Positions 1 to 23,040 of a DNA stretch of 32,664 nucleotides are shown one piece after another. How positions within the stretch are numbered: position 1 is the first letter of the stretch; the number at the start of each line of letters is the position of its first letter. Source of the stretch: Sphacelaria rigidula (taxonomy: Eukaryota); assembly GCA_964200075.2 (NCBI GenBank), contig CAXNAA020000038.1:1-32664 (forward strand), in the 5' to 3' direction. The translations under genes were made by a program, and so were the position numbers. Under the pieces are notes generated by a model, which was given only the letters and a program-made list of their open reading frames with translations, was not told the origin of the DNA and did not search any database.

Positions 1-1302
1 TCCCATTTCGATTTACGTGAAGATTTCGGCTCCCAAAACCATGCACTTTTTTGGGGGGGGGCTATCGTAGAAAGTGTCAACTCTGCCTGTAAGGGTGCGC
101 GAATCCTGCAGCCTATCACTGGTTCATCCTGCCAGTAACGATTCGAATCGGAGCTCGCGGAGTGGATGGCTGCATGCATTCCACAGCAGCAGCTCTACAC
201 GCAAGGTTAACGGTGGTACCAAGGGGTATGCTCACATGTTGTTCGGCCCGTCGCATCAGCACAAATGTGTTGCTTTCACTATAATTAGTTCGAGTTATGT
301 TGCAAAATCGTCAACACAGGAGAAAGCTCCAGGGATACTGTCGTCCTGTGGTGTCTTGATTGTCGTAAGATGCCGGTTCAAGACGTTTCGAAACAGCAGA
401 TACCGTTACGCTCCCGGATGTAGCCGAGAAAGTGGACTTCGTTTCGAACGCCCGAAGTGGCTGTCGGGTTCAGACAGTAATTATGAAGTTGTGCTTGAAG
501 ATCGTCTCGGGAAGTAGGAACCGTTTTCAAACGACACTAGCAAAATTACCTTCCTTGTGAACCCGCCGAGGATATTAACGTGGTCACAATGTATCTTCTA
601 AGCATATTGCCGAAGGTACAGCATACCAGAAGAAGAATGGATTGATTCCCAGCGCCTGGTATCCCAGAGGGGATATTGGAGACTGGGTTGTGATACAGAG
701 AAAACTCGGAAAATTAGTGCTCGTGCTGAAGCTGTTGGTGTATGACTTTGACCACGGAGGCGGTCAAGCTGGGCATATCAACGCCAACGTCGCTGACATG
801 GCCGGTTCGAATTTCGACAGATGTATCTCTTGGGCTGAATCTGGTTCGCGTTGTGGAAAGCGTAAGAAAGCGTGCGGCGAGACAAAACGTTGATCAAAAT
901 TGTACGGGGTGCAGCATTACCGATACAACGATCAACGATAGTATGACAAGTGTGTACTAGGAGGTAGATTAGTTGATTCGGAAGACTACGGACTCACCTC
1001 AACGAAGGCGGTTGGAGAGGGGGTTCAAATCTTTGACGAAAAGCGAGAGGTATCTCTGAAGTGTTCTGCTGGGAATACGCGCGCGATTCTGCAATCGCGA
1101 GGCCAAATGCAGTTCCAGTTCATGATGGGCGCATTTCTTATCTTGTCTGGGACAAGTCCCCGTGTGCTCCTTGAGAGTTTTTTCAAAACACAACTTGCTC
1201 GCAACGGGAAAATCTGTTGAGGTAACAAAATCTACAAAATATATTACATAAATCGCGTTTTGGCGTCTTGAAGACACACACGTCGTCGCAAATCGTTCCT
1301 AC

Positions 1303-1500
1303 CTGGCCACGTGTCGGCCACTCCACTGAGACCAAAGCCTCGATCACCAGCGGCCAGGTTAGACTCAACGCGTCGCAATGGGAAATTTTGGGATCTTCCC
1401 AGATACGTTGTGCGCCTTCCTCTCTTGCCACCAGCGACCCTTCTCGTTCCCGTCGAGTTTGGTTGAGCGCGTCCGCATAATGTCGCGTCAAGCGTATTAT
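1303..1500 (-). CDS. Candidate downstream exon of the large minus-strand gene (IIRLTRHYADAL...LTWPLVIEALVSVEWPTRGQ)
   Basis: Acceptor gtacttgtAG| at 1501, donor CAG|GTAGGA at 1302; 198 nt open, phase 0/0. LTWPLVIEALVSV resembles the closing helix of the gene's other helical repeats. Linkage to the gene is inferred. Confidence 0.35.
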
Positions 1501-1769
1501 CTACAAGTACATCGTGATCCCCACCTAATTTCGGGTTAGGGTCGAGGATGCGGTTGGCGTCAGAGGGTAACCTTGGAGCATATGGTTTAAGTTTCAAGAC
1601 ACAAGTCGATACTATCACCGTTCGCACCACATTATTAGATGAAGATGAGGGGTCAAAGTTATGTTTCAGCGGTCTGTCTCACGCTCTGTATCGCATACTC
1701 GTCTTATGCATCAAAGAACATCGCTAGGAATAAATCAGGGTGGCTACGATCAGGCTTCAGGGTAGCATA

Positions 1770-2036
1770 TCATTCGTAGATGCTAAAGGCTGGGGCCTGA
1801 AGCTCACGATCAATATTTTTGTCGGCTTCACCTAATTTCGACGCGATATCCGCGTCTGCTGTGGATACAGCTGAGGCTGTAGGGATGTCGAGCCTGCTCT
1901 CTTGAGCAAGGGTACGCACATCAGCCGCACGGCTCCGCGGTGGTGCACTTGTGCATCTCTGGTGTGTAGACGGCAATGGTGGATGAAGGTAGCCGACCTC
2001 TGCATCTGTGAGCCCTAGGACTCCCGGGAAAGCAAC
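1770..2036 (-). CDS. Candidate exon: either terminal (to TGA at 1770) or a 39-nt exon 2036-1998 spliced to 1500
   Basis: Acceptor aaaatacAG| at 2037, phase 0, matching the GCG|GTAGGA donor at 2172. An alternative donor GAG|GTCGGC at 1997 gives VAFPGVLGLTDAE-IIRLTRHY. I cannot choose between the two. Confidence 0.35.
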   Translation of the reverse strand, partial: VAFPGVLGLTDAEVGYLHPPLPSTHQRCTSAPPRSRAADVRTLAQESRLDIPTASAVSTADADIASKLGEADKNIDRELQAPAFSIYE

Positions 2037-2172
2037 CTGTATTTTACAACCCACAAAGTGCATCAAGTACTGATTCAGCCGGGCATTTGACACCAACACA
2101 CGAAGTTGCTTTAAATGACGACTTGAGATGTCAATGAGGATATTGTCCGCCTTGGTCCCGTCGCGGTCCTAC

Positions 2173-2329
2173 CGCATCTACTCTGGTTAGGGCTGCGTCC
2201 TGTAGTACTATTATTAGAGACTCCGGGTCTGTCTGGGGCAGTTGCGGGGCTGCTTTTCTAACAACATTTTTGTTGCAGAAACTGCAGAAACTCCTGACTT
2301 GAAATAAATCTGAACGCATCTGGAGGAGT
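2173..2329 (-). CDS. Exon completing the second helical repeat (ISSQEFLQFLQQ / NVVRKAAPQLPQTDPESLIIVLQDAAL); apparent +1 frameshift
   Basis: Acceptor gactttttcAG| at 2330, phase 0, matches the previous exon. As given, the frame stops at TAG 2258-2260. Removing one base from the T5 run at 2267-2271 joins it to the 2131-2346 frame up to donor GTAGGA at 2172. Confidence 0.55.
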
Positions 2330-2994
2330 CTGAAAAAGTCGCACATGTTTCAGACTCAAGGAAGCATAATCGACACCAACATCGAAACTCACGCGCATAC
2401 GGGCGGAACGAACGTGTTGACGGGATTTGTCACTACGAAATTTCGTGTGCCTTTGTGTACCGTTTGCCTCGTAAGCCCGATTTTGTGCAAGTACCCAGAA
2501 CCTAGCCGGCTGAGTGATGATTAAAACATTCCCAAGCTTTGCGTGTAAGGATAAGGAGTAAACACGTTGTTTAGGCATGTATACCGCCCGGCACCCACTA
2601 CTCGAAAATCTGAATCAGATGTTGCATTTTGTCTGTCACACTAGTGCTGTAGTGCATGGCTGTACACACCTCCTTTCTCACGTTTACGAGCGAGCGGGGT
2701 GAATTGGTCGTCGAAATGGTGCATGGCCGCTGTTTGCGCACGATTTGCAGAAAATTGCACTAATCCGTCAAGGCAGCACTAGATCTGCCATAACCTTTCG
2801 GTCACTGCACGGACAACCCCGTGAGGAGGCTACGGCATCAGTTGCTCCCAAGTATTTGCATTTCAATCTAGCCCTTGTGCCGTAGTAACACACTGATTCG
2901 TCCAATCACAGCTTGATGTATGTATGGCCTGAAGCATGCTCAAGCCAGATGTCGATTGGGCATACGTAGAGACGTGCACGTCCGAGCGCGGTAC

Positions 2995-3091
2995 CTCCTT
3001 GTAGGCATTGAGGATCTCCCTGGTTGTCACTAGGCCCTGGCGAAGCTCGAACGAATCACAGAACCGAAGTAGATCTGGAAGAGTCATCTCC
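2995..3091 (-). CDS. Exon of large gene: EMTLPDLLRFCDSFELRQGLVTTREILNAYKE (p25-alpha/EF-hand-like repeat core)
   Basis: Pyrimidine-rich acceptor ...atcaaacAG| at 3092, donor GAG|GTACCG at 2994; 97 nt, phase 2/0. Splices in frame to the 4099 donor, giving LNVAFEAYARLLASGGR-EMTLPDLLRFCDSF. Confidence 0.75.
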
Positions 3092-4098
3092 CTGTTTGAT
3101 ATATTGAAGGCAAGTGCGGGAAATAAAGTCAACAACATTGTACGCGTTAGCGCGCGTGAGACGGAAGCGATGATATCACGCCCCAGAAATGTTGCTGGCA
3201 ACGATTGGCTTTCTCGGCGAAGTGCGCACACTTGTGTGCAGCACACATCGAACAGAGCTTTTTAAAATATCGAAGGGTCGAGAAGGAAACAGATAGTCAC
3301 AAAGCATCTCGTGGTAGTTTGCGTGAAATATGCGAATCGTGGGAGCCAAGGTCAAGGAGTTGTTTTCGTCGAGTGACTCAGGTGGCGAGCAAAGCACCCA
3401 CTAGATTCAAGCAATACAGTCCGGGGCTGAATTAACCGCAATCAACGTCTTGGTGGGTGTCATGACGATTATATAAAAAGTGAATCCGTGAATGTAAATT
3501 CCCTTTCGTTGGGTGCACGATACAAGAATTATTCGACTGTTATAGCCTATGTACGGGGCAACTGTGCAGGAATCGAACCAATACGCGATTGTGCAGACAT
3601 GAACCCATGAAGATGCGTGCCGGACACGACATGCAAGCGGGAAAAGCTACCAAAACATTGTACAAACAACATGGATGAATCTCAACTCACCACACAGTAC
3701 GCAACTCTGCTATTCATTCTCTACGCGAGTAGTTAAAATGCAGAGAACGTGATGGAAGTAACTATTTTTGCTATCAAAGAGACTCATGAAGCTAAAATCC
3801 GAGTACGGATTGCGAGGTATAAGTCTCACGAGATCAAAGGAACGATAAGCATGAGCAATATCAACGAGGCCTGAAATATTATGCTTTTAATTTCATTGGA
3901 TGTGGTGTCAACAACTTTGCTGCGTCAGGTACAAGTATATTCATCACACTGTTCGTAGGCAAACGCCGCAACACTCCATCAAGTTGCACCCGGTACAACT
4001 ACACAGAGCACACTAGCTACTCTTCTGTTACAACGCCTTCTCTCCAAACCAAATGCAGAGGGAACAGGGGGGGGGGAGATATGTGTCTAGCTGCTTAC

Positions 4099-4326
4099 CT
4101 GCCGCCGGAGGCCAAGAGACGAGCATACGCCTCAAATGCGACGTTCAAGCTGACTCTGTTCCTGTCCAAAACCTGCACGGACGATTTTTCGGGCCATATT
4201 GATAATCTCCTTGTTTCAGGGGGGCTTCTTGGTATCAACGAAGCAACCCTTCCTTCACTCCACGCTAGGTTGTCGGACCTTGAATAGCACTTCCGCAGCT
4301 CGTCAAATTTCGTCGGAGATATTGTC
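4099..4326 (-). CDS. Exon of large gene ending VQVLDRNRVSLNVAFEAYARLLASGG(R); 5' boundary uncertain
   Basis: The ORF 4095-4361 stop is part of a strong AG|GTAAGC donor (4093-4098), phase 2. The in-phase acceptors I found are weak AAG sites. Confidence 0.6.
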
Positions 4327-4881
4327 CTTGCAAATATTATCCCGCTTGTGGACGGCGGCAAGCGGAATCATGCAAAGTTTGTCTACAGCAGCAAATTGCA
4401 CTTCACAAAATACAACCAAGGTGTTGGGGTGACAGTTTGATCACTAAGGTGAAGGACAATCAGGCCTACTGTCAAGTCTTATTCCATCAGCGGAAGCATG
4501 AGATCAGCATGGTCTCTATCTCCTTGTGCCGGTAAGTGATGTATCATGCTTTCGTGTATAGGTGCGTATGTCGGCGTTCGATATTAAAATCCACGAGAAG
4601 CGGTACGATACGTGCGATCTCACTCGCAAAAACGACGGACACAAAAACTACGTGAAGCGTTCGGTAAAGATCAACGGTTCGGACCAAAGCTGTGCTTTAC
4701 ATATTTTCTTGAAAATGGAGTGTGTAAATATTTTGTGGTAACAAACTCAGAGACGTCTTCACAGTCGTGGGTGGCCGAAATCGCCAACTAGTTCGCTCTT
4801 ACTGAGAATAAGACTGGATAAGCCTGGCACTGCCGGGGATGGTGTGAAAAGCCTTGCGTCGTGGGAAAACAGCCATAGTAC

Positions 4882-4970
4882 CTCACATTATCAAATTTAC
4901 GCAATTGCGCGGATTTTTCCCCTGCTTCCAACGTCGACAGGTGTTCACCATCACAATACGGAAACGTATC
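4882..4970 (-). CDS. Candidate small linking exon (DTFPYCDGEHLSTLEAGEKSAQLRKFDNV)
   Basis: tttcgtacAG| at 4971 and AG|GTACTA at 4881; 89 nt, phase 0/2, which is the phase change needed between the flanking exons. No homology support. Confidence 0.3.
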
Positions 4971-5390
4971 CTGTACGAAACATCTGTAATACCTGCTGCG
5001 CAGCGATACAGCATGAACGTCGACTACTCCAACACTGACTAGAGTATGTGGGGTCGATTCGAGAATTGCTCAAAAATTGAAAACCGTGTTGGCTTCAAGG
5101 CTTTAAACGTGAAAACGCGGTAGTGAATTTGAGTCCACGTTTGACAGTACCTGAATTACTACTACTGTCTCAACCTTGGCATTCGTCTCTGAACAGTATT
5201 GGTTTAAGGCCGCCAAACTTTACGCGGTCAAACAGAGCCAGTGTACGCTTGGAAATGCAGCCTGCGACATGGCCGCACAAATACAATATAGTTGCAAGTG
5301 ACACGACAGTTCTGGTTGTTCGGCATCAACCGAGCAACGTGTTTGTTCAACTTCATACTTCTTTTTTGTTTGAAAGGGAGAAAAAGTCAC

Positions 5391-6615
5391 CTTCTCAACG
5401 CCCTTCCGCATCAGTCTGGAGCTCGCCATCCGCGCTGTCTGTACCGGGCTAGAGCACACAAAACTGGGTCGAGATGAAGCAGCTGCTTCTCGCGATGCAA
5501 GTGCACTCGTGGGGTCACCGCCCGCAGCACTATCGATACCATTCTCCCCACCCCCGCTGCTGCCACCCTTACCCGCACCCGCTCCCCTCGTATCACCAAC
5601 ATCACCAACATCACCAACATCACCACCATCACCACCGTCACCACCAACACCAACACCAACACCAACACCAACACCCCCAACCCCAATACCAACACCACTA
5701 CCGCTACCGCTACCGCTATCAATCTCATTTCTTGGGTGTATGGTTTCCGTATCGCGCTGGATAATGGTGCCTGCAGCAGATCTCACGGCACCAGGAATAC
5801 CAGTGAGTTTCGGAGCAAGTGATACCTGTTGCAGATGCAAGGAAGATCTTGCACGAGAACACAAGCGCGAAAACTCACACGGCATTTCTTCTTCGTCATA
5901 ATCTGGAAATGCAAATATCTCGCTAGTCTCTCGCAACAGCGTACCGGACTCTTGGCGGGATGACACTGACGTTTGCGCAGCTCGCGGATTTGCGTCATAT
6001 CCACCAATTTCTTGCCCTCGAGATGTCCGCGGACTCACTTCTTCCGAGCCGAACGGCGATTCCACCTGCCCTGATCTCGCCGAAATCATATGAGATAAAG
6101 ACTCGTGTCCCAGAGGCTCCTGCGCCACATCGGGCGCTGATGATGATAGTTGCCGTACCGGTCGGTCAAGCCCAGGGCCGCTGTCTTGGACGCCACGACT
6201 TGTCTCAATTAAGTCAGAGTCCCGCTTGGTAGGTTCGATCAAGCAACTCAGTTTGGGCTCGTTGATCGTCAAACTCGAATCCAGTGCAGATGATGCTGCG
6301 AGTGACGCGAGCGACAAAATAGATGATGCCCGTGGGGATCGCTGCGGTACTTTTGGGGTAGGTGAGGGCTGAGCATTCCGTACCACAACCGAGTCATCAA
6401 CGAGAGAGGGTCGATGCCTAGGCCCGCCGCTCTGTGATCCCGCTGGTGCTTTCCTTGCGCTTGATGTGGGTATTTCCGGGACTACTGGTTGGTCTGTAAG
6501 GGCTAGTAGAATGCTGCGGACTGCGGATGCATTCACAACAACTTTATGTGCTGCCCGCGGAGGGCGGCGAACCGTCTGTTCCGGAATCGTTTGCGCCATC
6601 GCTGGCACCGACTGC
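5391..6615 (-). CDS. Large exon, Ser/Pro/Gly-rich disordered region with a Gly-rich repeat
   Basis: Lies within the 510-aa ORF 5220-6752. Acceptor tatttcaccaatacAG| at 6616 (phase 2, matches the 7247 donor), donor AAG|GTGACT at 5390; 1225 nt. An extra small exon near 6.7-6.9 kb is not excluded. Confidence 0.65.
5593..5720. repeat. Compound coding microsatellite (CACCAACAT, ACCAAC and ACCGCT units)
   Basis: Directly visible; encodes GSGSGSGVGIGVGGVGVGVGVGVGGDGGDGGDVGDVGDVGD on the minus strand. Confidence 0.95.
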
Positions 6616-7246
6616 CTGTATTGGTGAAATAGCGATGGAGCACGGAAGAACACGTCGAAGCTTCTGATCCTTGCTTCACAGAACAGTGTACTGGTATGGC
6701 TGACCGTATGACCAATCTCGTGTCTAGTGCCGAGTTCCCGGTTCGGGTTCACTTCATGTTTGATGTAAGACTGCCAAAATCGCTCGGCCGATCCCTATGC
6801 TGTTATCATGTGCGGGAGACCTGGTGATGGCAGGCAAATGAACGGCTACATGCCAGAGCGAGGTGCTGCTGACGCCAACATTTTCGTCCAATCCCCGGAC
6901 TCCTCGGCTCTAGGGGATACGTTCAGGGAGAGGGACAAGACTTGATCGAACCTTCCCCGAAGACACTCATTTATGAAACGTGCTTAAAACGGTGTCTTCG
7001 GGAGGTTTGAGAGCAGAAATGCAATACAAACTTCTTGTTGACAAAATCCCCCGGGTCTCGATAAGGTCAAGCATCGACCTTGATGGTGTTTCAAAGGAAC
7101 AAGACACAGTTCAGGCGTACAACCCATACCACTCACCGAAATAAACCGCATAATTACGATGAAGAAAGTATTTTTGTCTGTTCATCTCAACAAGGCGGGG
7201 GGCAGCCTCACCACGATACCACAGTAATTTCCGCAGAGTACCATAC

Positions 7247-7420
7247 CTTAATCGCGTTTGAGCGGAGCTAGCGAGCGTAAAGAGCACGGCGAAAAGTCCT
7301 TCCACGCCCACTCTTTCCTCTCTCTGATGCTGGGAACAGAGAAAGCCATCAGGAGCCCCCCTGCCGGCGCGGGCATAATCTACGCCAACCGCGAGCCGTC
7401 GGCACTCTGGTCGCCCACAC
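7247..7420 (-). CDS. Exon with a second, degenerate EsV-1-7-like motif (CGRPECRRLA...FLCSQH) and the closing helix of the first repeat (VGVEGLFAVLFTLA)
   Basis: Acceptor acacaaacAG| at 7421, donor AG|GTATGG at 7246; 174 nt, phase 2/2. Splicing gives ...GMTDTSPR-CGRPEC, the usual spacing between tandem EsV-1-7 repeats. Confidence 0.7.
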
Positions 7421-7826
7421 CTGTTTGTGTACATAGTAGTTCAAATTTCTGCGTAGCGGCGTTTCAGCGATGCTACGACTACCCACAGCGGAAATGTTTT
7501 TCGCAGCTCTACGCATTATTGTCTGGCCGACGCAGGAAAGCTATATTGGGGAACGACGCGCTACTCCTCGTGATGAAGGCACTCTTGTTCAGCCCAACAT
7601 AAGCCGAGGGAACATATCACGAAGCGAGAACCTCACGATGGAGGGAAGGTTTCGCAGCCATCGTTCGACATCCCAAAGGATCTGAATTGAGTGGGAGGTG
7701 CATCTGAGCCCGAAACCCTACAGATGCCTCGTCTAGTGACTCATAATGACTTTTCTGGACGTATCTCATTATGTTCAAGGATAGTGATAGATAGACTTTG
7801 CGTACCGGAATGTGTCTTTATCTCAC

Positions 7827-9225
7827 CTCGGACTCGTGTCCGTCATGCCATCCAGGCGGTGCTTGCGGCAATACATCGCCTTTGACGCTAGTCCGATAGT
7901 TCCATATCGTGCTGCTTCCGAGCACCCAACGGCTATGCACAGCCTCAACCGGACCTCTCCTCCCTGTGATTTTTGTTCCACTTTTGATCCCGGTACAGGA
8001 TATATCCCACTCGCGATATCAGCACAAGCCAAGAACTTTGTCAAAGGTGGCATTTGTGCCTTTTGGGTGGACCGACTGTTTGATAACGCATCCGTACAGG
8101 CAGCTGTCGCAGACACGGCGGCGTCACTTTGTGTGCGATCGATCGCTTCCCACCACTTCAACGCGAGATCCACGTCAGCGTCGAGAACGGTGACTCCGTC
8201 AACCAGCTTACACGTTTTCACAAATTTCCGTACTCGTAGTAGGGAGACACCGAGTTCTGTCTGCCGGACTCCTGTAGCACCCTCTGCTTCGCCAGGTATA
8301 GCGCTCCGTTTGTTCTCACGTCTATAGTATGGGCGTATACTAGCAGAATCACGGGTGTGGAACGACGAAAAAGAATACCGCTGCGCTCTGTCTCGGAATA
8401 TTGTGGCCACCGTCGCCATTCTTTGACTTTGAGGCGCTAACATCCAGAGTGAGGCTTCAAGCGCGAACACAACTTTCTGGGATAGATGGTCGTCCCATCC
8501 TCCGGACAGTCCACCCCAACGTAAATCTCTCTTCGCTGCATCGACACCGCATACCTCAAGATCCGACACACCCCGCCCGTGTTCTGCCTTTGCATTAATC
8601 GCATTCTTGGTTGGCATCAGCTGGATAGTCCCTGGCAGAAGAAGCTTCCTCACGTGACCTCGCAGATAGGAAGCAGATCGTCCGGATCCCAAGCATTTCC
8701 AATTGTCTGCACCCAGGATACGTCGCATCCGTGCCATCCACACCTCCACACTCCCCCACTGTTCTATCGTTAGTCTACCCGCCTGAGCGGCAAGCTCCTC
8801 GATGTCCACACTGCCCTCCTCGTCTGTATTGATGGCAGGTTCCGCAGAGTTTAATAGTGGCCCCGCGACAGATGGCGGGTGAGATGACCGCCGTGCTCGC
8901 ACCGAAGGGGTAGGGAGCGCCGAATTCTCCTTTGACTCCCCTGGCAATTCCATGGCGAGGACTGAAGCCTGTCCAAGCTGCACTGTCTCTTCCTCAGCGC
9001 AGTTGATAGGCTCAATGTTGGCTGCTGCTGTTGCTGCTGCGTTGGTTCTTGCCGCTGGTGCAAGCTTGGTCATTTTTTGACCAGCTGTTGAACTTTGCGT
9101 GTCGGTGCCGAGTCTACGGAAGCACGTTTTGGTACGTCGCGGTTTGGTGGGTGAGCGTTGCCTGACCAGTGCGGGGTGCAGGGCATCGATCAGCGCGCAA
9201 CGCCGCTTGATACCCGGTGTGTAAC
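7827..9225 (-). CDS. Large exon with a p25-alpha/TPPP-like segment (RKFVKTCKLVDGVTVLDADVDLAL, 8150-8248) and an EsV-1-7 motif (CIAVGCSEAARYG...KAMYCRKHRLDGMTD, 7838-7939)
   Basis: Lies within the 559-aa ORF 7823-9502, whose stop is part of the AG|GTGAG donor (7822-7826). Acceptor catgacAG| at 9226 (alternative at 9359). Motifs recognised by eye from remembered consensus; no HMM run. Confidence 0.75.
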
Positions 9226-9560
9226 CTGTCATGGGTAAATATATATGGCTTACTGTGAAGGATACACAGAGTCTTTCATCCATAGGACTAGTATCGAGCG
9301 CGTCATCTGCTAGGGTTCGGGTTAGGTGAGTCACACTCGGTTTGAAGCCTTCCGACTTCTGACAGCAGGAAAAAACTACGCGATATGTCTTGGTGAATGG
9401 ATCACGAACATACGACGCATTTCGATTATCCACTAAAAGCCCCCAATCCGCGACAAGCATTATGGAACAGTTTGCGATATGCCTACCTAGCCGGTCGACC
9501 ATATATTCATCTGAGTTAACATAAATTACAAAATCAAGCTATACTGCCCGCTACACTCGC

Positions 9561-9664
9561 CGGCCAGATCCCGTTTCTTGTTGGTATTTTCTGGACACAA
9601 TCGTTTGAAGCCCGGAGGGTGGTGGCTCCTGGCAGGTAGGGATATGGCCCCTGCGTTGGTATCC
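9561..9664 (-). CDS. Candidate 104-nt exon with a GC donor
   Basis: Acceptor tattgtttcgcAG| at 9665 (phase 2 matches the 9926 donor). The donor CCG|GCGAGT at 9560 gives phase 1, matching the acceptor at 9226. Confidence 0.4.
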
Positions 9665-9925
9665 CTGCGAAACAATATTTCGATGACAACGAGGCACGAT
9701 ATCGATGAAGTGTCGAGTTGCGGCAAACAAAACAAAAAAATGAATGTTGAATTTCCAGCGTGGGCAACCTCTGCGAATCGATTATTTGTTACCAAACACT
9801 ACGGGAAAACGCAGGTTCAAGGTACAAACTCTGTTCCCTGCGAGCTGCAACGCAAGTTGGGGGAAAGCCGGGACCAGAAAAAATGGGGTCAGTTGCCTAC
9901 TTGTATCTCGGTTTTTGCCACTCAC

Positions 9926-12900
9926 GGGAGAGACGACTGCTCAGCATCAGATTTTGACTGGGTGGTGCTCTTTCCACGTTGCGATCGGTCATGTTCCCGT
10001 AGACTGCCGGTCCCGCGTGCACTCGCTTCCATGGAAGCGTGTATCCTATCGTCATTTTCGACATTAGAAGTCCCGATACGCGGAGCCTCCTCCCCGACTT
10101 CGCTCAACTCGTGTTTTTCGCCAATGGTCGTAGTTTGTCCTTCGCAAATATCCGCATTTTGGAGACTGTGGCCAAGCTCGATAGCATCTGTAGACATGCC
10201 AACAATAGTCGGTCGATCATGAACCCGTCCTGTCTCTCCGATCATCTTTTCTCGCAAATCGCCGACGTCCTTGGCGTGGTAAACACGTCGCTCTGCCTTG
10301 CAGCCACTGGGCTCATTTGCACTACCAACAGGAGCGATCGCAGGATCTACTGTGGTACAATGCGACGGATTTCCGCCGGGAATGTCGAAGGAGGATCCAT
10401 CCCACGCCATGTGAAACTCGTCCATCGTCTCCATTGTATCCATAGTATCTCCTCCGACGGAAACGCTCGGTGAAGAATCCTCGGCGACCGGGTTGTGTGG
10501 CCTGGAGTCGTTGTGCAGGATATTCTCGTCCGCGGATGCCTTCACTGTACCGTCGACTGGCGGCGACTTTCGTATTTCGTTGCTTGTTCGGCCGCTACCG
10601 AAGCATTCATCTTCCGTACTATGTGCTTTTTTCGCACCTTGTAGGAAACGATCACTATCCAGCTCAATGATATTGCTCCTCAACGCCTCGTCCATCAGAA
10701 TCTCCTTGTCTTCCAAGACTTGCTCCGTGGCGTCATCTGAGGGCTCCTCTCCAGCACACTTGGTTTCATCTTCTCCTACGGAGGAGGCCGCTTGCTGCCG
10801 TCGTGTTTCATTGTTGCTGCCCCCTTTCCAAAACCAACTACTGATCTTCGAGAGCACCCCATTGGTAGTGTCATGTAAACATGCGGACGATCCACAGCTA
10901 CTTGCACTTCCTCTCTGCGAACCTGACTGACTTCCCGCACCCGATCCATAATCTTCGGCATTTCCCTCTCCTCCCCTGACATCCACCGCTACTCCTTCCA
11001 TGATACTATCCTCCACGTCCCGTTGATCAGCCAACCTAGCCCGCGGATGAGTTTTCGTCAAACCTTCGAGCGCCCGAAGCATCTGTCTACCGGCGTCTGG
11101 CCCCGCGGCACGAGACGCCAGCTCAATCAGCGATAATGTGGCCTCGACATGGTCATAGTCAATCACTTCAGGTGTCGGAACAGTGCCCTCGGATGCCGAG
11201 CGCGCATCTCGATTCGCTCCCGGTTTATACGCACGTCGAGGTTTGGGAGAAACGGTGTGCCCCCGTGCCCGGGCAAGCGCACCTCGAGCATCTTCCGCTG
11301 CACGCAAGACTATACCTTCCCGCGTAAAGGAATCGATTTCCCCTCGAAGTTTAACGAGGATGTTATCATACAGGCCTTGTATTCCGTCGACACTGTGTGG
11401 TCGCTGTGAAATTGGCGGAATTGTTTCACCATTCGATGGCTGTTGCGGCGCTGTCATTTTTTCGTTTCTCAGCATTATCCTTGAGGACAATACGTTAGCC
11501 TCCTCCTTTGTTTCCGTTCCGCTGTCCGGACATGCACCCTGGATCTGGCCGGTGACACCTTGTTGACGAAACCGCACTTCATCGCTCCCAGCAGCAGGAT
11601 GCGCTCCGACGGATAAACATGGAGTGTCGACAGATACTATCATGCAGCGCTTACTGTCATCGCCAGGTCCGTTCATTTCGTCTCCCCTGTCCACAACCCA
11701 GGCCCCTTGTGACAATGGAGTGTATCGCAAGCGATCCTGGAAGAACCGTACATCAATGCCTTCCGATTGCCCAGGTGCTGCCTTGTCACCGACACCACTC
11801 AGCGCACAGTCGATTTCGCCGGACTTGCGACGTCTCATACGCGAATCCACTTCTTTCCAAGTATCGACGGGTTGCGTAGCATCCTTTACCGCGTTCCCTC
11901 GACGTCCCCCTGTAGGTTTAACATTACAACTCTGCTCTGATCTCTTCGCTTTTCCTGCCGTACTATGTCTGAAGCTCTTCGTCGGCTTCATGAAGCTTTT
12001 GCGCTGCGATTGGTGCACCGTATCCGTTTTATCCCACAATTCAGAACCATCCTCAAATTCCTCTCGAAATTGCCGCATCCATCCCGCCTCGAAATCGGGG
12101 CTATCACCAGGCGCTCTAACTGGCATTGATTTTCCTCCGGACCCATAAAAAAAGCTCTGGTTCACCAAAAGCCCTCCCGCAGTTTCTCGACTTGGTGACT
12201 GTGCCCACGGTGAAGGGCGGTGCGTCTGATTTGAATCCGGCGTGTTTTGAGGCGAACGTGGTGTTGAAGGGGCGGTTTCCATCTCGGCTCGACCCGCATC
12301 ACCTTCGATTGTGTTGGCGACGCCGAGCTTGCTAAGTGGCCGCTTCATGTTAGTTCTCCAGGGGCGGGAGGTATGTCGCACGGAATTCGTCCCAAGTCGA
12401 CGAGACAAGTTCCAGAACATGGATGATTGTTGATGTTGTTGTTGTTGTTGGATCATCTGACAGCCACACCAGGTGGACACGGCTAATGACGGTTCTGGTC
12501 CCGAAGTCGCGTCCGGAACAACGGATATGCTCGAATTTCTGCGTATTTCTGACACTGCCTTCAACATTTTCGCAGTATCTGACCCCCAGGTATTATTATT
12601 CTTGGGAGCATTTGACGAACACTTCCTGTTCATCATAAGGGGTTCGGCTGTCCACGACCTCAATGCTTGCCAACGTGCCAGCGTGGCAGGGTCATTCGTT
12701 CCGCCAGGCATGCGTCGATGCGATGTGCTCGACCGCATACGCCCCTCTGCGTTCGACACTTTGTCTTGGTCACCTCCCGCATCACTCGCAAACGCTGCGC
12801 TACCCTCTCCTGGCGATACAGCAGTTTCGGTGGGCACCTTCTCATTAGTACCCGTATCACCGTCGATAAGGTGGGTCGCAAAGTTGTTGGTGGATCTGTC

Positions 12901-13042
12901 TGCGGCTTCCTTGATGCTGCGTGCTACTTCGTCTCGCTCTGCTGCGTCCTCGAGGTTTTTCTCCCAGGTAGCCCAGTCTTCTAGCATGGCAATTATTGCG
13001 GCATTGCTCTGGTCTTTGATGTGTACACTCGACCCGCCCAAC
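9926..13042 (-). CDS. 3,117-nt exon encoding ~1,039 aa of mostly disordered S/G/D/E/R-rich protein with a short polyQ tract
   Basis: 1061-codon ORF, far beyond chance length. Acceptor cattttccatcacAG| at 13043; the ORF stop is part of the donor GTGAGT at 9925. Phase 2/2. Confidence 0.75.
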
Positions 13043-13984
13043 CTGTGATGGAAAATGGTGATGTTCGGGCGCTGGATTCTCTGTACTGCGCAGGGACATT
13101 GGTACATTCAAACCTATGCACCAAGTTCGGCTTCGGCATGAATAGCTCGAAACTACCCGATTCTCAGAAAAGGAGTAATTCAGTGCTATCTGTTGGCTAA
13201 GCAACACAAACGGGAAAGCTCGCAACTAGTACAGCGGAGTAAAAGGTGCTCGTAGATCACTTGGAAGCACCGATTATATCAGCGTTGACTCAATCGACAC
13301 CTTCTGACGGTTGGATCGTGTTTCGAAGTTAGGTGCAGTCACTCGATCTCGGATTTTTTTCACACCATGTCCAACAGTGGAGAGCGACTATGTCGTGGGT
13401 ACACAAACTCGACTTCACGGTCGACAGGGCAAAGGGGCCGCTGAGCCCCTCTCGAGATTAAAAAAAAAGGCAAGCACCGCAAAAAGAAGAGGGGGCACTG
13501 TAACAAAAGAAAAAAGTTTAAATCTCCAGTGTTGGCCTTCTTCCTGTGTGACCCTGGCTGATGCGCCCACATGTCGTACACCGAAATGTGTAGACTGGCT
13601 TCCAGAATAGATGGGACGCAACACAACATATACATGCGTCGTGTAACCTTGAGGTCACAGAGCACTCCTGGCGACGTTGAAGGAAATATTCGTAAACTTG
13701 CCTCTTGGTGCCGACGGTGGCCTAGGCTGTACATACTCTTACCAACTCCACGGAAATGAATCTACGCAAGGAAATCCGAGGGTGTCCGTCCGGTCTTAAG
13801 CGAAGGCGCAGACCGTGCGGCAATCGGCAGGCTGCTTCAGATCATACCGATGGGCTTGTTCGGCAAAAATGGCCCCTGACCAGGGACGCCCGGAGGGCCG
13901 CCGGAGGCGAGCTTACGGGGGTATAAGCACACCTTCATCATGAAATCATTTGAAAACATGAAGAAGTAAAATTCGACCTAGAAC

Positions 13985-19974: not shown

Positions 19975-21300
19975 CTCAATGATGCTTCCAGATGCCAATC
20001 GCTGGTGCACGACCTTTCAACATGGTACTTGAAGTTGTTCGAAGACGCACTGCCAACGCCTCGCTCATGACCATCGATGGCATCGACCATATAGGGACCC
20101 TGCTTGGCAACAGCAGGGGAACCTTCGAGGGCTGGGACTGGTGACGGATGCACTTAAAACAAAATGTCGTCCCGGGCTGCAAAATCGGGGACAGACAAGT
20201 TGAGGGTGAAAGGTACATTTTCAATCTTCCGACGAAAACGGTGATATGACTTATATCGCCGTCTTTACTGACGCAAGATATGACTGGGGACAACTCTGCA
20301 CGGACCGTACATGAACCGCGCCACGGGCTGATTAGTTTGGGATTTGGACCATCAGTCGCCGTGCAGGGACGGTGGAGCAGTACTTGCTCTCCCATGTTCA
20401 AGTGGGAAATGACACATTAGCTTTGACGGATGCTTGTGAATCAGCTCGCTCTTTACGATTACGTCGGGCTAACTTGTACACAAGTTGTAACCGCTCGACC
20501 GCTCGACGGTCTGCCTAGAATACTCCGACGATGACTGTGGAGCCGATGTTGACGGGACACCGAGAATGACATCTACTGTAACACTGCAGGGCAGCCAAAC
20601 ATGACGAAGTGGGGCGTTTCTTGCAGCGTAGTAAAGTAGGCAGTATTATATGCGAATTGGCAGAAGGGCAAAAAATCAACCCAAATGCGACATGCAATAT
20701 CGTTGTACATAGCGAGCATGTTGTAGACGGTACTGTGAACACGCTCAGGGACGGAGTTGCCTTGGGGACGATAGGCAGGTGAGAGTTTTTTGTACCCAAA
20801 GACAGTTTGAAGTTATTTGACAAGTTGATCTTCAAACTCTTTGGTTGGTCTGAACGTGACGGTCCTGATGGACTGAAGACAGAAATAACATGTGTGACTA
20901 GCTGAAGGGTCACGATAGTCGCGAGCTTGTCAGGCTCCGTTATTAAAATGACAAACCGAGTTAAGTGGTCAATGATGGACAAAATGTACCGGTTACCCCG
21001 AGACAGGGTTTGATACTCGACTAAGTCCACTGCTACACGCTGAAAGACGCAAGTGACTTCTCGGTGTCCCGTGGGGAGCTGAGGTATGCGGCGAGACATT
21101 TTACGGTGTTGACAAGACTGACAATGGTCGATATGCTGTTGCACATCGGAATGGATAAAGAGCCACCAGTACCGGTCTCTAATGCTATCAAAAATGCTTT
21201 GAAGGAGAGGTGACCGCCTGACGCGGGTAAATCATGACACGCATGAATGACTAACGAGCAAAGTACGATGGGTACTACCAGCTGATCACGGGAATCCGAT
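19975..21300 (-). pseudogene. Integrase (HHCC, DDE core, GPY/F module) plus chromodomain-like tail, frameshifted
   Basis: ACHDLPASGGH...HCQSCQ; FQRVAVDLVEY...NRYILSIIDHLTRFV...SDQ; GEQVLL...PKLISPWRG; YMVDAIDGH...FKYHV...W. Confidence 0.9.
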
Positions 21301-21649
21301 CGCTTTCGCAAATTACCCGGTAGGTATTACCCGAAAAGCCGCCCTTCAAGAAGGAAGAAATGACTCATCGTGTACTTGTTTTCATAACGTGGGAGTGGAC
21401 TAGACTCTGGTTTACGCAGGTACGCAAAATATTGACTGTACTCTGCTTCCTGTTGGGCGGTAAACGGGTCGGGATCAACAAGGGGGAACACTGACACAGC
21501 ACTCGCAATCACTCTCTACGGGAGCGATATTGTCCAAGTTGTGAGCTGAGACCTCAAAACTCACGGGGTCACGGCGAATGATACGGTTGATCGTCAGGGA
21601 CATTCCGATATATTGTCGCAAGGCGAGGTTTCGAGACAACATCCTCGCC

Positions 21650-23040
21650 GTGAGTACCGCCAAGCAAACGTGACATCGCGTCGTGCACGACATTTAATTC
21701 ACCCGGGACATGCTTTACTGTAAAATCAAAGCTTTGCAGTTGAATCGACCAATGGGTCAGCATGTTGCTGGTGTCCTGCATCCGATGAAAATGACAGAGC
21801 GCTTGATGATCCGTGTCGACTGTAAAATGTCTTCCCCACAAGAACGAACGGAAATGCATGAGCGTCGAGACTACGCCGCAACATTCTTTGTTGGGTGGGC
21901 TAGTGTGAGGCTGAGAATTGGAAAAAATATCTACTAACGTACGCGATAATACTGACATCATCGAGGAATTTAGAGTTCGGGGTGGTGTCACCCAGAAGAG
22001 CACCCAGAGCAACCTCTGAGGCGTCTCTGTGCACTGCGAACTCTTTCGTGAATCTGGCAATTTCAAGGCTGGTGCACTGGTCAACATACGTTTGATGGGG
22101 TCAAAAGCTGCAGACTATTCAGAGCCCCGAGCTTCCAAGAAGTTATGTTTCTTTTCACAACCTTTTTTTGTGAGAGCGACGAGGGGACCAGTGATTCCGG
22201 CGTAACCTTTGATGAAACGCCTGACAAAAGTCATCATGCCCAAGACTGCCAGAAGTTATTTGATTGACTTGGGGGGCTCGAGGTCGCAGATGGCTGTCAT
22301 GCGGTCTTTACCGATGGAGACACCGTCGGTAGTGATGACGTGACCTATGACTTTCTTAGGATCGAACTGAATTTTGGACGGTTTGAGGATCAGACCTGCT
22401 GCTTGTAATGCGGACAGTATGAGACGAAGGGACTTGAGGTGATCGTCGAATGTATTACTGGTGCACAAAATATCAAACATGTAACGCAGCATACCAGAGT
22501 CTGGACCCAAATGTCCGAAGACGATAGGCATCATACATTCATGCAACGAAGGGGCAGGCATGACACCAAACGGCTTGCGTAAAAATACATATCTACCGGA
22601 CGGGGTAGTGAAACGTGTCTTGTCTACATCCACAGCTGCAGGAAGTTGCCAGAAGGCCGACATGATGCCCGCGACAGGGATAAATAAGCACCGCCTACAG
22701 CGTTCGAACACGTATCCATATTGAACATAGAATACGATTTACGGATTAGATACTCGTTGAGAGTGTTGAGATAACCAGCGCAAATTCTCGGTGAGCCATC
22801 TGCTTTTTTCGCGACGGTACATGACGGAGAACCCCAGGCGCTAGGGCGCTCTGCGATGATCTTCAATTCGAGCATATCTTTGACACACTTCTCGATGGCT
22901 TCGGCTGTACAGGGGTTGGAACGGTACGGTGGTTCGTCGACTGGGATAGTATTTTCGGGGACGCGTAAAGCGTATGGTGCAAGTACCAAGCTCGTGCATA
23001 GACAATGAAAACACCAGCCGGGATTCGGCTCACAAGTCAC
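21650..23040 (-). pseudogene. Reverse transcriptase and RNase H, frameshifted, catalytic YxDD mutated to YMFD (22472-22483)
   Basis: PPYR...PSAWGSP...KKADGSPRIC; AFWQL...KTRFTTPSGRYVFLRKPFG; LTSAPAL; FLWGRHFTVDTDHQAL...WSIQLQSFDFTVKHVPGELNVVHDAMSRL. In-frame stop at 22256. Confidence 0.95.

What the first reader, a model, noticed from the sequence alone, without database searches (positions are those of the whole stretch)
7247..8420. Virus-associated EsV-1-7 Cys/His motifs inserted inside a p25-alpha/TPPP-like repeat
Seen after splicing 7827 to 7420: VATIFRDRAQRY...VSLLRVRKFVKTCKLVDGVTVLDADVDLALKWW-[linker]-CIAVGCSEAARYGTIGLASKAMYCRKHRLDGMTDTSPR-CGRPECRRLA...LCSQH-QREERVGVEGLFAVLFTLA. Known: EsV-1-7 repeats were named from Ectocarpus siliculosus virus-1 and occur in an expanded brown algal gene family that includes IMMEDIATE UPRIGHT; p25-alpha/TPPP domains bind tubulin. 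Inference: two EsV-1-7 motifs sit in the loop before the repeat's closing helix. A second uninterrupted repeat (AFEAYA...MTLPDLLRFCDSF...EILNAYK...ISSQEFLQFL) lies downstream. This would link the EsV-1-7 module to a possible microtubule or flagellar scaffold, an architecture I do not recognise.
Basis: partly seen in the sequence, partly recalled or inferred. Interest (0 to 1): 0.7.

Follow-up and report, generated by a model that had tools for sequence, protein, structure and literature searches.

The report
EsV-1-7 zinc-motif pair in giant gene
This stretch is two spliced exons of a very large, mostly disordered algal gene that carries one typical and one degenerate EsV-1-7 cysteine/histidine motif, while the proposed tubulin-binding (p25-alpha) framework around them could not be confirmed.

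Summary
The sequence and the 7827-to-7420 splice are real. Spliced contigs in 3 of 3 RNA-like runs skip 7421-7826, and the DNA run does not.

The region is exons C and D of a minus-strand gene of at least 8 exons. It is colinear with Ectocarpus siliculosus hypothetical protein Esi_0020_0141, 2695 aa.

- **Motif 1** is a canonical EsV-1-7 motif: Pfam 24.1 bits against a cut-off of 25, and 38.2 bits with my own repeat model.
- **Motif 2** keeps only the Cys-Cys-Cys-His skeleton, which is conserved in all 6 annotated orthologs checked.
- **Upstream domain D1** is shared by 21 of 57 database relatives. It matches no p25-alpha profile or solved structure.
- **Downstream module D2** gets lead-level support as p25-alpha-like from language-model features: score 0.94, 8 of 30 hits.

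Both structure models were too poor to judge (pLDDT 51 and 54).

Verdict: a new member of the EsV-1-7 family with a conserved, undescribed architecture. The idea of an insertion inside a p25-alpha repeat is unproven. Interest is moderate to low.

The parts
9926..13107 (-). Exon A: a 1061-codon open frame. Its 5' limit is not determined.
   Evidence: ORF. The splice 9926 to 9664 (GT..AG) is seen in 2 of 3 RNA-like runs. Colinear with P0018 residues 76-851.
9561..9664 (-). Exon B (104 nt), followed by a GC-AG intron at 9226-9560.
   Evidence: Joint 9224/9560 is seen in 3 of 3 RNA-like runs.
7827..9225 (-). Exon C. It encodes the family-specific domain D1 and EsV-1-7 motif 1. Conserved blocks lie at 9155-9217, 8651-8782, 8387-8503 and 8135-8260.
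   Evidence: Frame is open across the joints. 21 of 57 relatives share D1. Alignment. Block coordinates were worked out by hand.
7838..7939 (-). EsV-1-7 motif 1 (C-x4-C-x17-C-x2-H ... GM.D), canonical.
   Evidence: Pfam PF19114: E 3.2e-5, 24.1 bits, cut-off 25. My HMM from 232 repeats: 38.2 bits.
7421..7826 (-). Phase-2 GT-AG intron between motif 1 and motif 2.
   Evidence: Skipped in contigs of X1, X2 and X3, not in X5. 13 genomic-ORF homologs end at this same point.
7247..7420 (-). Exon D: degenerate EsV-1-7-like motif 2 (7327-7419, C-x4-C-x21-C-x2-H) followed by a conserved hydrophobic helix (about 7252-7302).
   Evidence: Translation. The Cys/His skeleton is kept in 6 of 6 annotated orthologs checked and in the window. 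HMM score is only 3.7 bits. One X2 contig ends at 7246, next to the predicted donor.
5391..6615 (-). Exon E: a low-complexity linker. Its acceptor at 6615 is inferred.
   Evidence: Donor 5391 to 4172 is seen in 1 of 3 RNA-like runs. Acceptor 6615 keeps the frame and fits the contig cover. Matches P0018 residues 1945-2031.
4099..4172 (-). Exon F: first helix of module D2.
   Evidence: Joints, translation, alignment with orthologs.
2995..3091 (-). Exon G: core of D2. Its acceptor at 3091 is inferred.
   Evidence: Donor 2995 to 2036 is seen in 2 of 3 RNA-like runs. 75% identical to P0018 residues 2238-2269. The atlas lead to p25-alpha was obtained on the ortholog.
1989..2036 (-). Start of exon H: end of D2.
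1319..1471 (-). A later coding exon of the same gene.
   Evidence: tblastn against P0018 residues 2488-2525: 79% identity, E 3.5e-12.
2276..2302 (-). It is intronic and not part of the observed transcripts.
   Evidence: It lies within the skipped stretch 2037-2994. It is not colinear with the orthologs.

Best explanation
Positions 7247-8420 are the end of exon C and all of exon D of one very large minus-strand gene. The gene has at least 8 exons and encodes about 2200 residues or more. It is the ortholog, in a relative of the brown algae, of the uncharacterised Ectocarpus siliculosus protein Esi_0020_0141.

The protein is mostly low-complexity sequence with a few conserved islands. The island examined here has three parts:
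- D1, a family-specific helical domain.
- One canonical EsV-1-7 motif followed directly by one degenerate copy, with a conserved intron between them.
- A conserved hydrophobic helix after the second motif.

Inferred mechanism: each motif binds one zinc ion through its Cys-Cys-Cys-His ligands. Together the pair forms a small rigid docking module, held between conserved helices, on a long flexible scaffold. The partner is unknown.

A separate C-terminal module, D2, is probably (about even odds) a short, divergent p25-alpha-like helix bundle. D1 is not demonstrably p25-alpha.
For: Shown:
- Six splice joints with GT-AG or GC-AG ends occur on the minus strand in RNA-like contigs. None of them occurs in the DNA run.
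- The frame stays open across all the joints.
- The window is colinear with P0018 residues 76-2525.
- P0018 is named Esi_0020_0141 / CBN74420.1.
- Motif 1 scores 24.1 bits in Pfam and 38.2 bits with my own HMM.
- PF19114 is found in 20 of 21 aligned family members.
- In the Ectocarpus stretch Pfam reports 2 EsV stretches.
- The motif 2 ligands are invariant in the 6 orthologs checked and in the window.
- D1 is shared by 21 of 57 relatives.
- For D2 of the ortholog P0009, the atlas top hit is a p25-alpha cluster: score 0.94, 186 of 256 features shared, 8 of 30 hits.

Inferred: zinc binding and the docking role.
Against: - Motif 2 is almost invisible to profiles. It scores 3.7 bits in the window and 4.4-9.5 bits in orthologs on isolated peptides, and it is not reported in the whole protein.
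- Motif 1 falls 0.9 bit short of Pfam's cut-off.
- The D-to-E splice and the acceptors at 6615 and 3091 are inferred, not seen.
- No run is on record as RNA. 'RNA?' is the tool's guess.
- For D2, Pfam gave 0 families at E<=10.
- The PDB sequence search with D2 gave only two irrelevant hits, E 0.37 and 0.93.
- No zinc-binding or partner data exist.
Confidence: 0.62

Rival explanations
1. D1 is a p25-alpha/TPPP-type repeat. The two EsV-1-7 motifs are inserted in its last loop, and the helix after them closes the bundle. D2 is a second such repeat, which would make the protein a microtubule or flagellar scaffold.
For: - The local pattern in block d (K-F-x-K-x-C-K-L-x-D-G-V-T-V-x-D-x-D-x-D-L) resembles the p25-alpha core as I recall it. 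This is recalled and was not tested against a profile.
- D2 of the ortholog has a p25-alpha lead.
- The hydrophobic helix after motif 2 is conserved in all annotated orthologs.
Against: - Pfam p25-alpha matched 0 of 21 members at E<=10, and nothing in the window fragments.
- Sequence and profile searches of solved structures, run on the whole Protein Data Bank chain set, gave 0 hits.
- The atlas gave no usable hit for D1.
- D1 versus D2: probability 0.3%, P 0.2.
- No conserved GxGxGxxGR motif.
- The closing helix named for D2 is intronic.
Confidence: 0.12
2. D1 is a helix-turn-helix or Myb-like nucleic-acid-binding unit. Together with the zinc motifs it would make the protein a nuclear regulator or chromatin scaffold.
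For: - Weak Pfam HTH_23 hit on block d of the Ectocarpus stretch: E 0.021, 15.1 bits against a cut-off of 24.6.
- The block d pattern L-G-V-S-L-x-R-x-R-R-F looks like a recognition helix (my reading).
- The EsV-1-7 family is discussed in the literature as possible zinc fingers and developmental regulators (passages of 10.1101/2024.02.19.579948).
Against: - HTH_23 is seen in only 2 of 21 members at E<=10.
- Structural matches to homeodomains are Z 3.5-4.7, were obtained on the low-confidence D2 model rather than D1, and lie within the noise range the tool describes.
Confidence: 0.13
3. Neither D1 nor D2 is related to any known domain. Both are lineage-specific helical islands, and the p25-alpha resemblance is the generic look of short amphipathic helix-loop-helix segments.
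For: - Every statistical test against known families was negative except EsV-1-7.
- The tool states that shuffled proteins reach an atlas score of 0.9 or more 4 to 10 times in 100, and that none of this was measured for parts of proteins.
Against: Its shared-feature count (186 of 256) is typical of same-family hits by the tool's own calibration.
Confidence: 0.3

Closest known systems
Ectocarpus siliculosus hypothetical protein Esi_0020_0141 (CBN74420.1, UniProt D8LHY9; P0018). Its orthologs include unnamed proteins of Scytosiphon promiscuus, Hapterophycus canaliculatus and other Ectocarpus species.
   Same: - Same order of conserved islands over residues 76-2525.
- Same D1, same pair of motifs, same helix after them, same D2.
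- Pfam annotates only PF19114.
   Different: - Only 26-37% identity in exon C.
- The window protein sits in a separate 5-member clade, support 99/97.
- The motif 2 loop is 21 residues in the window against 16 in Ectocarpus siliculosus; other orthologs have 18-19.
- The disordered linkers differ in length.
EsV-1-7 repeat proteins of brown algae and phaeoviruses, including IMMEDIATE UPRIGHT (Pfam PF19114).
   Same: Motif 1 has the same Cys-Cys-Cys-His skeleton and the GM.D tail. Motif 2 starts at the spacing typical of tandem repeats.
   Different: - Typical members listed have 2-8 matching stretches (most have 4-7), and the two I scanned in Pfam have 5 and 9. This protein has one canonical motif plus one degenerate one, inside a protein of more than 2000 residues.
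- It also carries further conserved domains that the multi-repeat proteins lack: 36 of 57 relatives match only the motif.
TPPP-like multidomain proteins with a short or truncated p25alpha domain in stramenopiles (Orosz 2012, PMC3498115).
   Same: D2 is a short helical module in a long multidomain protein of a flagellated stramenopile lineage, next to zinc-binding motifs. Orosz lists Ectocarpus proteins that combine a short p25alpha domain with B-box zinc fingers (passages).
   Different: - The ortholog CBN74420 is not among the Ectocarpus entries in the passages I read (CBN75312, CBJ49059, CBN76131).
- There is no Pfam PF05517 match.
- There is no conserved Rossmann-like GxGxGxxGR motif.

Membership tests
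EsV-1-7 cysteine-rich motif (PF19114) | Match to the Pfam model at or above the gathering score of 25 bits. | tested here: inconclusive
   - Window motif 1 scores 24.1 bits, E 3.2e-5, just under the cut-off.
- 11 of 19 D1-family relatives scanned reach 25 bits or more. 7 lie below it and 1 has no hit.
- The Ectocarpus stretch scores 33.8 bits with 2 stretches.
EsV-1-7 cysteine-rich motif (PF19114) | C-x4-C-x(15-17)-C-x2-H ligand skeleton. The spacing was taken from 232 repeats of relatives: x16 in 137, x15 in 65 and x17 in 14. | tested here: met
   Motif 1 has x17. Motif 2 has x21 in the window and x16 in Ectocarpus. Ligands are invariant in the 6 orthologs checked and in the window.
EsV-1-7 cysteine-rich motif (PF19114) | Tandem array of several repeats. 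| tested here: not met
   Only two adjacent motifs are present, and the second is degenerate at 3.7 bits. Multi-repeat relatives listed have 2-8 stretches (most have 4-7), and the two scanned in Pfam have 5 and 9.
EsV-1-7 cysteine-rich motif (PF19114) | Zinc binding (proposed in the literature, not shown). | not testable with these tools
   Needs metal analysis of recombinant protein.
p25-alpha / TPPP (PF05517), region D1 | Match to the Pfam p25-alpha model. | tested here: not met
   0 of 21 members at E<=10. The window fragments gave none. HMMER's filters drop most matches above about E 0.1.
p25-alpha / TPPP (PF05517), region D1 | Fold like solved TPPP structures, with the helix after the motifs closing the bundle. 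| tested here: inconclusive
   The model has mean pLDDT 51.4 and pTM 0.25. The structure search aligned only residues 4-56, best Z 5.8.
p25-alpha / TPPP (PF05517), module D2 | Match to the Pfam p25-alpha model. | tested here: not met
   0 families at E<=10 for the ortholog's 111-residue D2 stretch and for the window's exon G.
p25-alpha / TPPP (PF05517), module D2 | Resemblance by another independent method. | tested here: inconclusive
   - The atlas top hit is a p25-alpha cluster, score 0.94, 186 of 256 features, 8 of 30 hits. This is a lead only and is not calibrated for parts of proteins.
- The model has pLDDT 53.6.
- Foldseek's best hit has E 1.3.
- The wide structural alignment search gave a best Z of 4.7.
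p25-alpha / TPPP | Rossmann-like GxGxGxxGR motif of long and partial p25alpha domains (Orosz 2012, passages). | tested here: not met
   None in the window model or in P0009. In P0018 it occurs only inside glycine runs. Short-type domains lack this motif anyway.
p25-alpha / TPPP | Tubulin or microtubule binding. | not testable with these tools
   Needs a co-sedimentation or localisation experiment.

The most novel reading that the evidence does not exclude
D2, and more remotely D1, are true but very divergent p25-alpha-type modules. This conserved gene, which appeared once per assembly contig in my searches (copy number per genome was not tested), would then couple an EsV-1-7 zinc module to tubulin or flagellar structures. 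Because it carries conserved cellular domains that the expanded repeat family lacks, it could also be the ancestral cellular home of the EsV-1-7 motif. The brown-algal expansion and the phaeovirus copies would then derive from it.
Probability: 0.12. Interest if true: 0.65.

Novelty: new member of a known kind. Interest (0 to 1): 0.35.

Why it matters
EsV-1-7 proteins are the most expanded gene family of brown algae. One member, IMMEDIATE UPRIGHT, controls early development, yet no biochemical function is known for the family. A 2026 preprint states that no Ectocarpus EsV-1-7 gene carries any other Pfam domain (10.64898/2026.04.27.720984, passage read).

This gene is different. It keeps one canonical motif next to conserved non-repeat domains across brown algae and a sister clade. 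That makes it a natural place to look for what the motif binds. If D2 proves to be p25-alpha-like, it would give the first mechanistic link from this family to the cytoskeleton.

As it stands, the result is a solid, RNA-supported gene model and a conserved but uncharacterised architecture. It is not a new kind of system.

Tried and rejected
- **Whole genome:** none is held.
- **Rfam:** 0 matches in the window.
- **RNA runs:** no RNA holder is listed. X1-X3 are only guessed to be RNA.
- **Structure prediction:** D1 (ortholog stretch, 21-row alignment) gave mean pLDDT 51.4. D2 (10 rows) gave 53.6. Both are too poor to judge packing.
- **Structure searches:** Foldseek on D2 gave 0 matches at E<=0.001. 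The wide structural alignment searches gave a best Z of 4.7 for D2 and 5.8 for D1. No TPPP chain was listed in either answer.
- **Complex prediction** of the D1 core against motif 2 plus helix of P0018: 'no answer', score 0.01.
- **PDB sequence searches:** 0 hits, 2 irrelevant hits and 0 hits.
- **Atlas on the window's D1:** no usable hit.
- **Scans of viral contigs and metagenome contigs** with the D1 alignment: pattern matches, but none confirmed.
- **The third homolog search** with D2 ('longer'): only the two known orthologs.
- **Earlier scan notes:** nothing relevant.
- **Papers:** no paper holds the Ectocarpus ortholog's identifiers. Macaisne et al. 2017 is not held.
- **p25-alpha profile:** I could not bring a p25-alpha profile or sequence into the session, so no profile-profile test against PF05517 was possible.
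- **Coordinate script:** I derived the coordinates by hand instead.

Full report
**1. What is in the sequence**

The window is eukaryotic DNA of about 50% G+C. No whole genome is held for it.

A 571-codon open frame (7826-9538) ends in ...TSPR, directly before GTGAGA. A second frame resumes at 7420 after ...ACAG.

**2. Splicing**

I laid contigs of three runs that the tool guesses to be RNA (X1-X3) and one DNA run (X5) on window 1-13300.

The joint that removes 7421-7826 is present in 3 of 3 RNA-like runs and in 0 contigs of X5. X5's long contigs run straight through (records 26-28).

Five more joints with GT-AG ends on the minus strand were seen:
- 9926/9664, in 2 of 3 runs.
- 9561/9225, in 3 of 3 runs.
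- 5391/4172, in 1 of 3 runs.
- 2995/2036, in 2 of 3 runs.
- 4099/2036, in 1 of 3 runs. This is an exon-skipping form that shifts the frame and stops after 7 codons.

The reading frame stays open across every joint.

The link from exon D (donor at 7247) to exon E was not seen. I infer the acceptor at 6615 for three reasons:
- It keeps the frame.
- It has the ...ACAG look of the other acceptors.
- It fits the contig cover, which starts below 6660.

The acceptor of exon G at 3091 is inferred in the same way.

**3. One large gene and its ortholog**

A search of 1.84 billion representatives with exon C gave 57 proteins at E<=0.001.
- 21 of them share the region upstream of the motif, which I call D1.
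- The other 36 match only the Cys/His motif, in 2-8 stretches each. These are ordinary multi-repeat EsV-1-7 proteins.

Three long hits are annotated brown-algal proteins:
- P0018 is Ectocarpus siliculosus hypothetical protein Esi_0020_0141 (CBN74420.1, D8LHY9), 2695 aa.
- P0015 is from Scytosiphon promiscuus.
- P0009 is from Hapterophycus canaliculatus.

Five more Ectocarpus orthologs were found.

A local tblastn shows the window to be colinear with P0018 residues 76-2525, from 12999 down to 1319. So the finding lies in the middle of a gene of at least 8 exons. My model up to 1773 gives 2173 residues, and at least one more exon follows at 1471-1319.

In a tree of 21 rows, the window-like protein falls in a 5-member clade (support 99/97). 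That clade is separate from the 16-row clade that holds the named brown algae. Rows left out of the tree were:
- P0010, because my start pattern failed on it.
- P0011, which is truncated.
- P0059 and P0060.
- The near-identical P0061-P0064.

**4. The Cys/His motifs**

*Motif 1 (7939-7838).* It matches Pfam EsV_1_7_cys at E 3.2e-5 and 24.1 bits, just under the 25-bit cut-off. A model that I built from 232 repeats of the multi-repeat relatives gives it 38.2 bits. Of 19 D1-family relatives scanned, 18 hit PF19114 and 11 reach the cut-off.

*Motif 2 (7419-7327).* It has C-x4-C-x21-C-x2-H. My model does not report it in the whole protein. On the isolated peptide it gives only 3.7 bits, and 4.4-9.5 bits in the 6 orthologs.

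Four points still argue that motif 2 is a degenerate EsV-1-7 copy:
- It begins at the usual tandem spacing, five residues after GM.D.
- Its four ligands are invariant in the 6 annotated orthologs checked and in the window.
- Its tail (R-V-[DG]-V) mirrors the M-V-D-V of motif 1.
- In the Ectocarpus stretch Pfam counts 2 stretches.

The skeleton pattern occurs only at these two places in the 2173-residue model. It appears in 21 of 5000 shuffles of that protein.

The intron between the motifs is conserved. 13 genomic-ORF homologs end at exactly this point. 7 others run on into unrelated read-through sequence, and 1 stops earlier. The three spliced annotated proteins whose sequences I read in full (P0018, P0015, P0009) continue directly with motif 2.

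**5. The p25-alpha idea for D1**

No test that I could run supports it.
- Pfam reports no p25-alpha match for the window ORFs at E<=5.
- It reports none for the window's 47-residue core or for exon D at E<=10.
- It reports none for any of the 21 members of the family alignment at E<=10. The only other weak family there is HTH_23, in 2 of 21 members.
- Sequence and profile searches of all solved structures gave 0 hits.
- The protein atlas gave no usable hit.
- The AlphaFold model of the ortholog's D1 plus motifs plus helix has mean pLDDT 51.4 and pTM 0.25. It cannot show whether the helix after the motifs packs on D1.
- The structure search aligned only a helical hairpin, Z 5.8.

The helix itself is conserved in every annotated ortholog.

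**6. The downstream module D2**

In the RNA-supported model D2 is encoded by three exons: F 4172-4099, G 3091-2995 and the start of H at 2036. It is 69-75% identical to the orthologs in its core.

It has no counterpart in the orthologs.

For D2 of the ortholog P0009, the atlas's feature search puts a p25-alpha cluster first. The score is 0.94, 186 of 256 features are shared, and 8 of 30 hits belong to that family. The tool says it is not calibrated for parts of proteins.

The other tests on D2 were negative or uninformative:
- Pfam gave 0 families at E<=10.
- The PDB sequence search gave 2 irrelevant hits.
- The model has pLDDT 53.6.
- Foldseek's best hit has E 1.3.
- The wide structural alignment search gave a best Z of 4.7.
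- No conserved GxGxGxxGR motif is present.

**7. Literature**

I read passages, not whole papers.
- The Phaeoexplorer preprint (10.1101/2024.02.19.579948) calls the EsV-1-7 domain a possible new class of zinc finger. It describes the family's expansion in brown algae.
- A 2026 preprint (10.64898/2026.04.27.720984) states that none of the Ectocarpus EsV-1-7 genes has another Pfam domain.
- Orosz 2012 (PMC3498115) lists Ectocarpus TPPP-like proteins CBN75312, CBJ49059 and CBN76131 in the passages I read. CBN74420 is not among them.
- No held paper contains the ortholog's identifiers.
- Macaisne et al. 2017 is not held. I know it only through citations.
- Supplements, where family lists may include this gene, were closed.

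**8. Verdict**

The EsV-1-7 reading is right for motif 1 and reasonable for motif 2. The reading of a p25-alpha repeat split by an insertion is unproven for D1, and D2 has only a lead.

The gene is a conserved, already deposited but uncharacterised member of the EsV-1-7 family. Its architecture differs from that of the expanded repeat proteins.

Noticed in passing
window 1-78: A very high-copy stretch. Summed contig depth in the DNA run X5 is about 346,000, against about 67 for the rest of the window, and about 2,800 in X1-X3. Many contigs break off at 47-49 and 78-82. It contains a T6G8 run. Its nature is unknown (sequence).
   Followed up: no
window 9226-9560 (minus strand): A GC-AG intron (donor GCGAGT) in the same gene, supported by joints in 3 of 3 RNA-like runs.
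   Followed up: partly
window 4099 to 2036 (minus strand): An exon-skipping isoform that leaves out exon G, the core of D2. It was seen in 1 of 3 RNA-like runs. It shifts the frame and stops after 7 codons.
   Followed up: partly
window 5592-5702: A coding microsatellite (period 6/9/18) that gives Gly-Val and Gly-Asp runs in exon E. The tool skipped reads there as a repeat.
   Followed up: no
window 20518-22738 (minus strand): Remains of a Ty3/gypsy-type retroelement. Integrase_H2C2, RT_RNaseH and RVT_1 are found in separate broken frames.
   Followed up: partly
window 8320-8420 and 17 other places in 1-13300: Contigs of X1 and X2 differ from the window at 22 listed places, while X3 and X5 show none. 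P0001 (99% identical) also differs from the window protein at residues in this stretch. I did not map those residues to the listed places. This suggests a second allele or strain.
   Followed up: no
window 1319-1471 (minus strand): A strongly conserved short block (79% identical to Ectocarpus) far downstream in the same gene. It has no known family and may be another functional island.
   Followed up: no
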